NCBI GenBank assembly: GCA_964016885.1
Contig: OZ024740.1
Location: forward strand, 416,454,001-416,518,000
Origin: Eledone cirrhosa
Taxonomy: Eukaryota
Direction of reading: 5' to 3'
Length of the DNA stretch: 64,000 nucleotides
Made by a program: the position numbers and the translations under genes. Positions 8,174-56,204 of the stretch are shown piece by piece. The first letter of the stretch is position 1. Each line of letters starts with the position of its first letter. The notes beneath the pieces were generated by a model. It saw only the letters and a list, made by a program, of their open reading frames with translations, was not told where the DNA came from and ran no database searches.

Positions 8174-8237
8174 TATTGATATAAGGCAAGGCAAACAAAT
8201 TAATCATCAGATTAATGCTTCTTTCAAACTGTTTCAC
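8174..8237 (-). CDS. LBP/BPI: LBP/BPI exon (64 nt, phase 0 to 1)
   Basis: atgatttcag|GTGAAA...ATCAATA|gtaagt; [21 protein letters not shown]. Confidence 0.88.
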
Positions 8238-56200: not shown

Positions 56201-56204
56201 TCAC
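8174..56204 (-). CDS. LBP/BPI: Partial multi-exon LBP/BPI-family gene (9 exons in window; 5' and 3' exons outside)
   Basis: Spliced product: (G)[303 protein letters not shown]. All junctions are GT-AG and in phase. Family hallmarks: N-domain Cys pair, FHGG motif, KGE-F/Y at the domain junction, S-Y-LNS, KLYPN, LP-IN. Confidence 0.9.
8570..8759. mobile_element. Tc1/mariner-pogo type MITE
   Basis: Terminal inverted repeats taccatatatact...agtatatacggta with internal ataagctg/cagcttat; related ends near 27600-27680 and 28564-28650. Confidence 0.6.
9190..9500 (+). mobile_element. Degenerate RTE-like LINE 3' end with (GAA)n tail
   Basis: Similar to 16680-16910 and 13275-13430 (agctgctactt...ctaagagatc...gtggttagaatatctaaggaaagaat...). 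Confidence 0.55.
9668..9906. mobile_element. piggyBac-like MITE, family A
   Basis: TTAA-cctttt...aaaagggTTAA termini; second copy at 12416-12853. Confidence 0.7.
10182..10227 (-). CDS. LBP/BPI: LBP/BPI exon (46 nt, phase 2 to 0)
   Basis: ttttgtactgtttcag|TGTAACA...ATTGAT|gtaagt; (N)[15 protein letters not shown]. Confidence 0.82.
10410..10620 (-). mobile_element. tRNA-derived SINE (family 1)
   Basis: actggtactttattttatcgaccc...gatgaaaggcaaag...ggtttgaactcaga (B-box on minus strand); many copies in window. Confidence 0.8.
10707..10938 (-). mobile_element. tRNA-derived SINE (family 1) with target-site duplication
   Basis: Full copy flanked by ttttgtatatat(t/c)ataat at about 10707 and 10921. 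Confidence 0.85.
11026..11930 (+). mobile_element. CR1-like LINE, 5'-truncated
   Basis: Translates to VRPHLEF..PVWNPY....[10 protein letters not shown]...YSERLASLG...NTRGH...FF..RV...WNKL; 3' UTR ends in (ATT)n. Confidence 0.85.
12416..12853. mobile_element. piggyBac-like MITE family A with nested family B MITE (about 12583-12808)
   Basis: Outer TTAAccctttc...caaaagggTTAA; inner aaaccggccatatcc...aaatgctaaagggTTAA shared with 21584-21811 and 53515-54677. Confidence 0.7.
13005..13072 (-). CDS. LBP/BPI: LBP/BPI exon (68 nt, phase 0 to 2)
   Basis: aaattttcag|ACAATT...ATGAA|gtatgt; [22 protein letters not shown]. Confidence 0.85.
13604..15717. repeat. 11-bp satellite (AAAT(G/A)GATATG)n, about 190 units
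   Basis: Register shifts by 1 per 10-nt block; degenerates toward 15717; ends about 25 nt from the exon donor at 15742. Confidence 0.97.
15742..15906 (-). CDS. LBP/BPI: LBP/BPI exon (165 nt, phase 0 to 0)
   Basis: tttcctatcctag|ATTGGT...CCTGTG|gtgagt; [55 protein letters not shown]. Confidence 0.92.
15965..16235 (+). mobile_element. CR1-like LINE 3' end
   Basis: Matches 11665-11900 (tacctgcatcagttgttagctgtc...gtgcacctgagcactgtac). Confidence 0.8.
17372..17440 (-). CDS. LBP/BPI: LBP/BPI exon (69 nt, phase 0 to 0)
   Basis: tttatttcag|ATTCGA...CCTGCA|gtaagc; [23 protein letters not shown] (LNT-C..CIG-LIP motif typical of invertebrate members). Confidence 0.9.
17715..18270. mobile_element. Two oppositely oriented internal RTE fragments around a (TA)n tract
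   Basis: 17715-18015 (-) and 18037-18270 (+) both match the RTE at 32020-32600; about 17805-17957 and 18107-18265 are inverted copies. Confidence 0.85.
18638..18680 (+). ncRNA. Minimal hammerhead-ribozyme-like core in a retroelement 3' end
   Basis: tctt-CTGATGA-a-gga(ctagca)tcc-GAAAC-gtt-aaga; downstream sequence repeated at 51118-51220. Confidence 0.5.
18792..19010 (+). mobile_element. tRNA-derived SINE (family 2)
   Basis: A-box tggcttaggggtt, B-box gagttcaattc, conserved gtgtccttgagcaagacactttat; related copies at 20121-20430, 20945-21125, 29265-29480 and 56555-56800(-). Confidence 0.8.
19157..19339 (-). CDS. LBP/BPI: LBP/BPI exon (183 nt, phase 0 to 0): linker and start of C-terminal barrel
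   Basis: tttttttcag|GGTGAAGTA...AAAACT|gtgagt; [15 protein letters not shown]...[26 protein letters not shown]; overlaps ORF 19115..19324. Confidence 0.92.
19376..19945. repeat. 48-bp minisatellite (about 12 units) derived from a LINE/SINE 3' UTR motif
   Basis: Unit aaaaagcacccagtccacactataaagtagttgtgttggggtcatgtc; grades into the RTE-type tail at 19920-20103. Confidence 0.92.
20121..20430 (+). mobile_element. tRNA-derived SINE (family 2)
   Basis: ggcacatggcttagtggttagagc...gtgagtttgattcc...ccttgagcaagacactttatttcac. Confidence 0.8.
20624..20921. repeat. 41-bp minisatellite, 7 identical units
   Basis: tataattttgtatatatactggtttgtgccttagtagaaat. Confidence 0.95.
21584..21811. mobile_element. 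piggyBac-like MITE family B
   Basis: TTAAtcttttagcatt...aaatggtaaagggTTAA; inserted in a degenerate repeat region (21400-21950). Confidence 0.7.
21990..23098. repeat. 15-bp minisatellite (ATATTAACAGTCA-CC/TC/TG) with 12-bp variants
   Basis: Direct reading; generates the MTVN and ILTV ORFs on both strands. Confidence 0.96.
23243..23334 (-). CDS. LBP/BPI: LBP/BPI exon (92 nt, phase 1 to 0)
   Basis: cttttactgcag|CCTATTTC...GTAAAG|gttagt; (S)[30 protein letters not shown]. Confidence 0.88.
24404..24590 (+). mobile_element. tRNA-derived SINE (family 1)
   Basis: agggcggtggattggcagtatcggtag...gagttcaaatccc...; flanked by attattataaattattat direct repeats. Confidence 0.85.
24604..26090 (+). mobile_element. 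L1/Tx1-like LINE, 5'-truncated and decayed
   Basis: GC-rich; [33 protein letters not shown]...TVLH.L..C knuckle; ends aataaagaaacc(att)n. Confidence 0.85.
26387..26795. mobile_element. Interspersed repeat, near-identical to 40250-40640
   Basis: catggtggctgccaactcgttttcgagta...ccttgacaaaggctaaggggtcatc in both places, each next to a TA/TACA microsatellite. Confidence 0.75.
26990..27598 (+). mobile_element. RTE LINE 3' fragment
   Basis: [22 protein letters not shown]; 3' UTR and (GAT)n tail like 44280-44893. Confidence 0.8.
29163..29263. repeat. (GT)n microsatellite
   Basis: About 50 GT units. Confidence 0.98.
29722..32797 (+). mobile_element. Near full-length RTE-clade LINE (AP endonuclease + RT + PHD-like finger), inactivated
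   Basis: EN motifs [30 protein letters not shown] motifs QFGF, FVDLEK.FD, HQGS, YADD; stops/frameshifts near 30105, 30515, 31010, 31386; (GAT)n tail. Confidence 0.93.
32798..33013 (+). mobile_element. CR1-like LINE 3' fragment
   Basis: GHAYKIRKQ...[15 protein letters not shown]; matches 11580-11790. Confidence 0.75.
33071..33137 (-). CDS. LBP/BPI: LBP/BPI exon (67 nt, phase 0 to 1)
   Basis: ttctattcctcag|ATATGT...CCCAT|gtaagt; [22 protein letters not shown] carries the second conserved Cys. Confidence 0.88.
33210..33492. repeat. (TA)n/(TACA)n microsatellite
   Basis: Direct reading; further large tracts at 39720-40255, 40850-41100, 41490-41555, 46175-46232 and 50870-50917. Confidence 0.97.
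33493..33991 (+). mobile_element. Gypsy 5' LTR
   Basis: Begins TGTAcAGCGAC, ends GTCGCTACA (terminal inverted repeat); internal tataaata and aataaa; followed by a PBS. Confidence 0.8.
33994..34009 (+). promoter_or_regulatory. Primer-binding site, tRNA-Trp-like
   Basis: TGGTGATCCGACGTGA 2 nt after the LTR CA; close to the complement of the tRNA-Trp 3' end (TGGTGACCCCGACGTGA). Confidence 0.75.
34050..37445 (+). pseudogene. Gypsy (Ty3) gag-pol remnant: truncated gag, protease, RT, RNase H, integrase
   Basis: Gag knuckle CWYH..FG..A.KC..PC; protease [21 protein letters not shown]; RNase H DAS, RELLA, TDHKPL, ADALS; integrase H..SHPG, C..C, DIVGP, TDRG, NG.VERFH; several stops and frameshifts. 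Confidence 0.95.
38290..39720 (+). mobile_element. Penelope-like element 3' part: GIY-YIG endonuclease remnant and 3' region
   Basis: [12 protein letters not shown]....CPL...CL..NIIYKC, YVGST..FKSR..H, TLA...W.L, then CKLC..E in a shifted frame; homologous to 47735-48330(-). Confidence 0.85.
40250..40850. mobile_element. About 600-bp interspersed element between TA-rich microsatellites (right part resembles an RTE 5' UTR on the minus strand)
   Basis: Left 390 bp matches 26387-26795; right part matches 23814-23935 and 26135-26220. Confidence 0.6.
41101..41494 (+). mobile_element. Short non-coding element with 28-bp inverted termini and an internal hammerhead core
   Basis: atacatacaggtacacatacatatatgt ... 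acatatatgtatgtgtacctgtatgtat, embedded in (TA)n; partial second copy at 42059-42104. Confidence 0.65.
41294..41336 (+). ncRNA. Minimal type I hammerhead ribozyme
   Basis: Stem I acggtg/catcgt; core CTGATGA; stem II agct(aaca)agct; GAAA; palindromic stem III ACTAGT; GUA cleavage triplet. Confidence 0.75.
41554..41993. mobile_element. Spacerless foldback palindrome (about 170-bp arms) plus unpaired tail; probable minimal Penelope-like insertion
   Basis: Symmetry axis at 41722/41723 (aacat|atgtt); 15-bp duplication in right arm; tail starts tatactccag as at 49306; (TA)n on both sides. Confidence 0.7.
42142..44894 (+). mobile_element. RTE-clade LINE, second subfamily, 5'-truncated
   Basis: RT ORF 43170..44501 (YADD; intact C..C/C..C/H..C/C..C finger); upstream frameshifted segments; 3' UTR and (GAT)n tail. 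Confidence 0.93.
44910..46175 (+). mobile_element. RTE-clade LINE, tandem 5'-truncated copy of second subfamily
   Basis: Highly similar to 43605-44894, with a small deletion near 45600. Confidence 0.92.
46232..46497 (-). mobile_element. RTE 3' UTR fragment, inverted relative to the adjacent copy
   Basis: Reverse complement of about 45908-46175; tail to tail across (TA)n. Confidence 0.9.
46507..49394 (-). mobile_element. Penelope-like element, 5'-truncated (RT + GIY-YIG), with inverted terminal copy and tail
   Basis: [38 protein letters not shown]....CPL...CL..NIVYKC, YVGAT..FK, CKLC.EE, CKH; 46507-46590 is inverted at 49221-49302, followed by an unpaired tail and (TA)n. Confidence 0.9.
50148..50460. 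repeat. Degenerate tandem duplication of about 155 bp
   Basis: gtgtgagtgtatgt(a/g)caagtcaacc...ctctaaccataattttcagta.taccaccccaca occurs twice. Confidence 0.8.
50768..50826 (+). ncRNA. Hammerhead-ribozyme-like core
   Basis: actgc-CTGATGA-ggt-catagcca(ttcaa)tggctat-catc-GAAA-tatat-ata-gcagt; stem I actgc/gcagt; (TA)n about 45 nt downstream. Confidence 0.65.
50919..51098 (+). mobile_element. RTE 3' UTR fragment
   Basis: Matches 45998-46175; (GAT)n tail. Confidence 0.85.
51737..51912 (+). mobile_element. Putative CRE-like non-LTR retrotransposon C-terminal fragment
   Basis: GC-rich island translating [18 protein letters not shown], resembling the FQR.S.A.QRGNA end of restriction-like-endonuclease elements. 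Confidence 0.5.
51913..53240. repeat. 81-bp minisatellite (about 16 units)
   Basis: 27-codon periodicity in ORFs 51737..53461(-) and 51783..53279(+). Confidence 0.97.
53583..54215 (+). mobile_element. Non-autonomous Helitron/Helentron-like element
   Basis: 5' ACTAG followed by hairpin cccggcgttgctcggg; 3' part aaatttggtcaaattc...(CA)n...cttatatatat; no TSD seen. Confidence 0.6.
54353..54577 (-). mobile_element. tRNA-derived SINE (family 1) with 17-bp TSD
   Basis: tttattttgataataat at 54353-54369 and 54561-54577. Confidence 0.88.
54880..55968. repeat. (GTG)n/(GT)n low-complexity tract
   Basis: Almost exclusively G and T on +; ends about 80 nt from the exon donor at 56047. Confidence 0.96.
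56047..56204 (-). CDS. LBP/BPI: LBP/BPI exon (158 nt, phase 1 to 0): end of N-terminal barrel
   Basis: ttttacattttag|GTGAAAAT...AGCCAG|gtattg; encodes [52 protein letters not shown] with the first conserved Cys. Confidence 0.9.

What the first reader, a model, noticed from the sequence alone, without database searches (positions are those of the whole stretch)
8174..56204. Hidden, apparently intact LBP/BPI immune gene spread over at least 48 kb of repeats
Seen: nine small minus-strand exons with GT-AG sites and matching phases join into a stop-free frame of about 304 aa, while the ORF track shows only scraps of it. Known: LBP/BPI proteins bind LPS through two barrel domains with a conserved N-domain disulfide, and molluscan members act in bacterial sensing, symbiosis and egg protection. 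Inference: this is a divergent, easily mis-annotated paralog. It reads [12 protein letters not shown] where invertebrate members, as I recall them, usually have FHGGASWLYNLF. The N-domain segment is Lys-rich (BPI-like), and the C-domain carries a C-x4-C pair.
Basis: partly seen in the sequence, partly recalled or inferred. Interest (0 to 1): 0.72.

Follow-up and report, generated by a model that had tools for sequence, protein, structure and literature searches.

The report
Octopus LBP3 immune gene, satellite-stretched
The nine exons are the middle of an intact 15-exon, 245,000-base octopus gene for a predicted secreted lipid-binding immune protein, the counterpart of squid LBP3 and of genes already listed for other octopuses, so it is largely ordinary; its untested oddities are an extra tail and a spare cysteine.

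Summary
Observation confirmed. Six more exons outside the window complete a 15-exon, 533-aa gene over 245 kb.

It is an LBP/BPI. The spliced product scores 341 bits on a profile of 120 outside relatives (nine exons 229; decoy chains at most 25). The O. vulgaris ortholog folds like human BPI (E 7e-36).

It is not a stray paralog. It groups 100/100 with Euprymna LBP3 and with Octopus vulgaris and Argonauta genes. Two other LBP/BPI genes lie 264 and 282 Mb away; none is in tandem.

The N-domain is basic, but the LPS-binding tip loops hold one Lys/Arg (median 4).

Intron 13 holds a 100.6-kb satellite found only there, apparently common in this genome. Expression is untested. New member of a known family; low interest.

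The parts
56047..56204 (-). Exon 5 of 15 (158 nt): end of N-domain, Cys152, [12 protein letters not shown] motif
   Evidence: Pfam PF01273 E 0.0017, 18.5 bits, under the cut-off; 36/53 identical to O. vulgaris
33071..33137 (-). Exon 6 (67 nt): Cys191, second cysteine of the N-domain pair
   Evidence: 14/22 identical
23243..23334 (-). Exon 7 (92 nt)
   Evidence: 13/30 identical
19157..19339 (-). Exon 8 (183 nt): proline-rich linker with the fifth cysteine (Cys254), start of C-domain
   Evidence: Pfam PF02886 E 2e-7, 31.2 bits, over the cut-off; 44/61 identical
17372..17440 (-). Exon 9 (69 nt): C-x4-C pair (Cys314, Cys319)
   Evidence: 20/23 identical; pair common in the family
15742..15906 (-). 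Exon 10 (165 nt)
   Evidence: Pfam PF02886 E 0.014, under the cut-off; 41/55 identical
13005..13072 (-). Exon 11 (68 nt)
   Evidence: 17/22 identical; covered by run contigs with no difference
10182..10227 (-). Exon 12 (46 nt)
   Evidence: 13/16 identical; covered with no difference in run X1
8174..8237 (-). Exon 13 (64 nt), followed by the 103,941-bp intron 13
   Evidence: 11/21 identical; covered with no difference
1..6458 (.). Right end of a 100,642-bp array of a 36-bp satellite (about 2,800 units) that fills 97% of intron 13. Exons 14 and 15 lie beyond it, outside the window (G000:C1:416358232-416358153 and 416345220-416345020).
   Evidence: all 1,171 exact genome-wide copies of a 35-base probe fall in this array
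56800..64000 (.). Left part of a 17-kb G-rich tandem array (period 34/54) in intron 4. Exons 1-4 lie beyond it, outside the window (G000:C1:416590492-378, 416563491-392, 416557904-782, 416530330-260).

Best explanation
This is an intact 15-exon gene, the octopod ortholog of squid LBP3 (BPI3), for a predicted secreted, basic, two-barrel LBP/BPI protein that likely binds LPS or other lipids and likely serves innate defence in blood cells and gills. Shown: exon chain, open frame, family, clade, single copy in 384 kb. Predicted: signal peptide, BPI fold (modelled on the 61% identical O. vulgaris ortholog), C152-C191 disulfide. Inferred from the family: the N-barrel grips lipid A or bacterial membranes and the C-barrel hands cargo to host cells. 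Inferred from squid and cuttlefish relatives: expression in gill, white body and hemocytes. The cell would transcribe through and splice out a 104-kb satellite intron; the huge introns likely reflect this genome's general local repeat growth, not a control device. Because the tip loops carry little charge here, binding and carrying is somewhat more likely than direct killing.
For: Open 533-aa frame, 14 of 14 GT-AG introns, hydrophobic N-terminus. HMM of 120 outside relatives: 341 bits over residues 6-478. Both Pfam domains over cut-off in 5 of 5 clade proteins scanned. Model pLDDT 87.9; best Foldseek hits human BPI E 7e-36, LBP 8e-31, CETP 8e-28. Tree of 64 rows: six-member clade with Euprymna LBP3 at 100/100. 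LBP3 hits this locus with 223 summed bits against 30 and 59 for the two other loci. Mature pI 9.39. Passages read: EsLBP3 higher in gills (PMC12773714); an LBP3-like transcript in E. tasmanica white body (PMC4361686); a 537-aa cuttlefish hemocyte BPI/LBP 52.6% identical to LBP3, 1.11-fold on Vibrio challenge (PMC7551771); EsBPI3 classed as a BPI by pI over 9 (PMC5380838).
Against: No transcript evidence for this species. No activity assay of any LBP3-clade protein appeared in the passages read; the assays read concern EsLBP1, EsBPI2 and EsBPI4. The two tip loops hold 1 Lys/Arg (median 4 in 121 others, 19 of 121 as low; 6 in EsLBP3), which weakens the LPS-binding inference, although their net charge (+1) equals the median. 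The folded protein is the O. vulgaris ortholog, not this one. Long branches make the place of the clade among molluscan LBP/BPIs unsure.
Confidence: 0.78

Rival explanations
1. It is a true bactericidal BPI that kills Gram-negative bacteria by permeabilising their membranes, as EsBPI2/4 do.
For: Basic protein: mature pI 9.39, N-domain pI 9.75 and net +11 against a median of +6. The squid ortholog is called EsBPI3 on pI grounds (PMC5380838, passages).
Against: 81 of 128 N-domains have pI over 9, so this is not distinctive. Tip loops carry 1 Lys/Arg, against 5 in the matching hairpin of human BPI as aligned. The paper's tree sets EsBPI3 apart from the assayed EsBPI2/4.
Confidence: 0.3
2. It has drifted to a non-immune lipid carrier (CETP/PLTP-like) in octopod blood, with the tail helix docking on lipid surfaces.
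For: Weak tip charge. A tail with a predicted helix at 496-520 in the ortholog. 29 columns fixed in all 6 clade members and under 10% elsewhere, most in the C-barrel.
Against: Closer to BPI and LBP than to CETP by profile (E 7e-55 and 5e-45 against 2e-18) and by fold. Tail amphipathicity exceeds shuffles in only 2 of 6 proteins and not in this one (p 0.46). Relatives are expressed in immune tissues.
Confidence: 0.12
3. The gene has been crippled: the 100-kb satellite in intron 13 blocks read-through or splicing, so the product lacks the last strands and the tail, or the gene is silent.
For: On the transcribed strand the array carries 2,751 GGTAA and 90 GTAAG donor-like words and 9 AATAAA.
Against: Exons 14 and 15 are open, keep good splice sites and stay 19/27 and 30/66 identical to O. 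vulgaris. Earlier unchecked notes describe several intact genes in this genome with larger satellite introns.
Confidence: 0.07

Closest known systems
Euprymna scolopes LBP3 / EsBPI3 (AEL03862.1; P0010)
   Same: Same clade (100/100), reciprocal best locus, both BPI domains, basic pI, C-domain cysteine pair, cysteine at the 254 column, C-terminal tail.
   Different: 34-37% identical. EsLBP3 has 6 Lys/Arg in the tip loops against 1, lacks the FHGG motif, and has a sixth mature cysteine.
Octopus vulgaris CAI9716322.1 (542 aa), O. sinensis LOC115216297 (390 aa model), Argonauta hians GAB1600666.1 (538 aa)
   Same: Direct orthologs, 61% and 48% identical; same five mature cysteines; same tail helix region.
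   Different: The tail is 6 aa shorter and less acidic here (net -1 against -7 and -6). Their intron sizes could not be read. The O. sinensis model lacks the first 152 residues of the O. vulgaris protein.
Human BPI (PDB 1ewf, 1bp1) and mouse LBP (4m4d)
   Same: Two-barrel fold (TM 0.79 by target, E 7e-36) and the N-domain cysteine pair.
   Different: 22-23% identity; no tail, no C-domain pair, and a more cationic tip hairpin in BPI.
Repeat-filled giant introns: Drosophila kl-3/kl-5 (PMC6508613, part 1 of 2 read) and avian 'sequence stuttering' (PMC12954441, passages)
   Same: An intact gene whose intron is mostly tandem repeat; as in stuttering, the repeat is local.
   Different: One very uniform AT-rich 36-bp array of 100 kb (27.6% GC intron), not GC-rich short expansions. 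No exon pieces in the array, and no evidence of a special expression programme.

Membership tests
LBP/BPI (BPI/LBP/CETP, TULIP) family | N-terminal BPI domain (PF01273) | tested here: met
   Exon 5 alone E 0.0017, under the cut-off; 5 of 5 clade proteins over the cut-off; the spliced product matches a 120-relative HMM from residue 6 to 478. The spliced product itself was not scanned with Pfam.
LBP/BPI (BPI/LBP/CETP, TULIP) family | C-terminal BPI domain (PF02886) | tested here: met
   Exon 8 alone 31.2 bits, cut-off 23.
LBP/BPI (BPI/LBP/CETP, TULIP) family | Two-barrel boomerang fold | tested here: met
   Tested on the 61% identical O. vulgaris ortholog: pLDDT 87.9, best hit BPI E 7e-36.
LBP/BPI (BPI/LBP/CETP, TULIP) family | Conserved N-domain cysteine pair | tested here: met
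   C152 and C191, columns filled by Cys in 118 and 117 of 127. The bond itself is inferred.
LBP/BPI (BPI/LBP/CETP, TULIP) family | Secretion signal | tested here: inconclusive
   Hydrophobic stretch at residues 5-15 (mean hydropathy 2.9); no signal-peptide predictor was run.
LBP/BPI (BPI/LBP/CETP, TULIP) family | Binds LPS or lipid | not testable with these tools
   Needs purified protein.
BPI-type (bactericidal) members | High overall and N-domain pI | tested here: met
   9.39 and 9.65-9.75; but 81 of 128 N-domains exceed 9.
BPI-type (bactericidal) members | Cationic cluster at the N-terminal tip | tested here: not met
   1 Lys/Arg in the two tip loops, median 4 in 121 others. Loops were defined by alignment, not by surface charge on a model.
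BPI-type (bactericidal) members | Kills Gram-negative bacteria | not testable with these tools
   Needs an assay.
Coleoid LBP3 ortholog group | Groups with EsLBP3 to the exclusion of other paralogs | tested here: met
   100/100; reciprocal tblastn. EsLBP1, EsBPI2 and EsBPI4 were not identified by name in the tree.
Coleoid LBP3 ortholog group | Shared gene neighbourhood with other cephalopods | not testable with these tools
   No related eukaryote genomes are held.
Membrane-anchored (TM or GPI) LBP/BPI | Hydrophobic C-terminal anchor | tested here: not met
   Best 19-residue hydropathy in the tails 0.52-0.92 in 6 of 6; no GPI predictor was run.

The most novel reading that the evidence does not exclude
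LBP3 is a distinct, squid-and-octopus sub-type of LBP/BPI with an added part: an acidic linker plus helix of about 50-60 residues on the last exon and, in octopods, an unpaired cysteine in the hinge. These would tether it to a partner or lipid surface. In octopods the LPS-gripping tip has lost most of its charge, so the protein may have changed from a killer into a tethered lipid sensor or carrier.
Probability: 0.2. Interest if true: 0.55.

Novelty: new member of a known kind. Interest (0 to 1): 0.24.

Why it matters
Modestly. It gives a full 15-exon model for a gene that one octopus annotation truncates. It shows that this genome holds at least three dispersed LBP/BPI genes, and it links the octopod gene to LBP3, a squid paralog for which the passages read give no activity assay. 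The tail, the fifth cysteine and the weak tip give three concrete things to test in cephalopod immunity. The 100-kb satellite intron is one more case of what seems to be a general trait of this genome.

Tried and rejected
Own-genome search with PF01273: no match (exons too short), so it says nothing.

First fold on a 6-sequence alignment: pLDDT 44, discarded; repeated with 125 sequences.

RNA check: no RNA holder listed. The three listed runs are of unrecorded kind, one sample, kept as contigs, possibly the assembly's own source. They cover exons 11-13 without differences and show no GT-AG joint among the 15 joints listed, 1,457 more not shown. They say nothing on expression. Contigs of the satellite reach depths of about 2,300-5,500 against 5-11 for single-copy pieces; this fits a high-copy repeat but is no copy number.

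Homodimer job on the O. vulgaris ortholog, residues 27-524: no verdict.

Tail in the ESM Atlas: best feature score 0.76 and TM under 0.5, no lead. Tail as TM or GPI anchor: rejected on hydropathy. Tail as a consistently amphipathic helix: 2 of 6 beat shuffles.

Tandem paralog: none in 384 kb around the gene by tblastn or HMM. Nested gene in intron 13: 97% satellite. 58 of 214 long open frames in the region were scanned with Pfam; the hits were mobile-element domains, associated PHD fingers and one sub-threshold ZIP match. Weak hits at G000:C7:62532569 (E 5.9) and C3:215115367 (E 5.4) were not followed.

Krasity et al. 2011 (PMC3679904) is not held. Baron et al. 2016 was seen only as a reference. 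Either may already describe the LBP3 tail. No supplements were read.
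Full report
Observation. A scan for AG..GT open segments on the minus strand recovered nine exons: 56204-56047, 33137-33071, 23334-23243, 19339-19157, 17440-17372, 15906-15742, 13072-13005, 10227-10182 and 8237-8174. They total 912 nt, phases match at all 8 junctions, and the frame has 303 full codons with no stop; the other frames have 24 and 32 stops. Three of 8 exons scanned hit LBP/BPI Pfam models on their own, one over the cut-off; the 46-nt exon was too short to scan. 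The chain scores 229 bits on an HMM built from 120 relatives outside its clade. Decoy chains reach at most 25.1 bits (1,172 of 2,000 scored).

The whole gene. The window is G000:C1:416454001-416518000 of a 3.0-Gb assembly. Exon 8 found an Octopus sinensis protein at 72% identity, so the animal is an octopod (inference from protein identity and the tree). With the O. vulgaris protein as guide I placed four exons upstream and two downstream. The result is 15 exons, 1,602 nt, 533 aa, one stop at the end, 14 of 14 GT-AG introns and a span of 245,473 bp. Every exon aligns to O. vulgaris in order. The N-terminus is hydrophobic like a signal peptide (no predictor run). The exon breaks fall at about the same residues as in the paralog at C1 152 Mb.

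Family. Five of 5 clade proteins carry both Pfam domains over the cut-off. Their profile finds only BPI, LBP and CETP in the PDB (E 7e-55, 5e-45, 2e-18). The full spliced product scores 341 bits on the outside HMM. The O. vulgaris ortholog, folded with 125 sequences, gives pLDDT 87.9 and matches human BPI best (E 7e-36). Its tail is low-confidence (block means 28-63), with one helix at 496-520.

Which member. Identity is 61% to O. vulgaris, 48% to Argonauta, 37-39% to two unnamed transcript-assembly proteins and 34% to Euprymna LBP3, then at most 30% to the other relatives listed. In a 64-row tree these six form a clade at 100/100, apart from the octopod paralog group. That tree used 17 chosen rows plus 47 of the 53 profile hits P0019-P0071, those of 440-540 aa; lower-ranked hits were left out, and EsLBP1, EsBPI2 and EsBPI4 were not identified. 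EsLBP3 hits this locus with 223 summed bits against 30 and 59 for the other two loci. Those loci lie at C1 134.6 and 152.2 Mb; the second matches an O. sinensis 'BPI-like' protein. No second copy lies in the 384 kb around the gene.

The C-domain cysteine pair is in 68, spacing 4 in 31. The exon-5 stretch is basic (net +6, median +2, 16 of 126 as high) and so is the N-domain (pI 9.75; 81 of 128 over 9). But the two loops at the N-terminal tip, where charge is held to matter for LPS binding (PMC4620459, passages), contain 1 Lys/Arg. The median is 4 in 121 others, 19 of which are as low; EsLBP3 has 6. Net loop charge, +1, equals the median.

Lineage marks. After the last conserved strand the protein runs on for 58 residues; the five clade mates have 47-64, while 117 others have a median of 7 and a maximum of 43 (rows with a gapped end and the two halves of one fused protein were dropped). 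The tail starts acidic, then turns helical in the model, and is not hydrophobic enough for an anchor. A fifth cysteine (C254) is in 6 of 6 clade members and 5 of 122 others; in the three octopod proteins it leaves an odd number. One search for 'cephalopod, LBP, BPI, C-terminal extension' (listing only) showed no paper on this tail, but two key papers could not be read.

Introns. Intron 13 (103,941 bp) is 97% one array of a 36-bp unit, 100,642 bp, single orientation, about one difference per unit, with no clear higher-order period. All 1,171 exact copies of a 35-base probe in the assembly lie in it. Intron 4 is 86% another array. The two paralog regions have 8% and 27% tandem repeat. Earlier unchecked notes on this genome list at least eight genes with comparable satellite-filled introns, up to 421 kb, so I treat this as background, not as a feature of this gene. 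Introns 5 and 6 hold LINE-like and LTR-like fragments.

How it likely works. Shown: an intact gene of the LBP3 clade. Inferred from the family (PMC4620459, passages): a secreted protein whose N-barrel binds LPS or bacteria and whose C-barrel passes the cargo to host cells. Inferred from relatives: gill, white body and hemocyte expression (PMC12773714, PMC4361686, PMC7551771; passages), nearly flat on Vibrio challenge in cuttlefish (1.11-fold). EsBPI3 was named a BPI for its pI; the activity assays read concern EsBPI2/4 and EsLBP1 (PMC5380838, PMC4620459; passages). High pI argues for killing and the weak tip against it, so I favour binding and carrying, without strong odds. Expression in this species is untested.

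Papers seen: passages of PMC12773714, PMC5380838, PMC4620459, PMC4500399, PMC7551771, PMC4199593, PMC4361686 and PMC12954441; part 1 of 2 of PMC6508613; the rest as search listings only.

Verdict. Interest 0.24. The tail and the spare cysteine are the only parts worth a bench test.

Noticed in passing
G000:C1:416359817-416460458 (window 1-6458 and beyond): 100.6-kb array of a 36-bp AT-rich unit filling intron 13; all 1,171 exact probe matches in the assembly are here.
   Followed up: yes
G000:C1 about 134591000-134670000 (minus; L048-L067): Second LBP/BPI gene, 11 exon-like HMM hits, lacking the FHGG motif; closest named relative not determined.
   Followed up: partly
G000:C1 about 152227000-152290000 (plus; L076-L095): Third LBP/BPI gene, matching an O. 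sinensis 'BPI-like' protein (79% over part of one exon) and an Argonauta protein; exon breaks like those of the window gene.
   Followed up: partly
window 34127-37260 (+), intron 5: Protease, reverse transcriptase, RNase H and integrase domains in that order over several frames: an interrupted LTR retrotransposon, opposite to the gene.
   Followed up: partly
window 31349-32761 and 43149-44498 (+); also L020, L021, L024, L041, L042, L043, L047: A LINE-like family whose reverse transcriptase frame is followed by a PHD finger; 9 of 58 frames scanned show the PHD match.
   Followed up: no
L027:1180-1908 (-) and L029:6616-8361 (-), upstream of the gene: PIF1-like helicase frames, probably Helitron transposons.
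   Followed up: no
window 17589-17723, 19376-19943, 27325-27444, 28012-28186, 44633-44731, 45910-46014: Short tandem runs of related 48-bp units at six places; an 11.6-kb array of a similar-looking 49-bp unit lies about 22 kb past the stop codon.
   Followed up: no
P0011 (Gigantopelta aegis LOC121388412, 1,094 aa): Database protein with two full LBP/BPI units in tandem; may be a fused annotation of two genes.
   Followed up: no
P0001 (O. sinensis LOC115216297): Database model lacks the signal peptide and most of the N-domain; likely truncated annotation, an alternative start is not excluded.
   Followed up: partly
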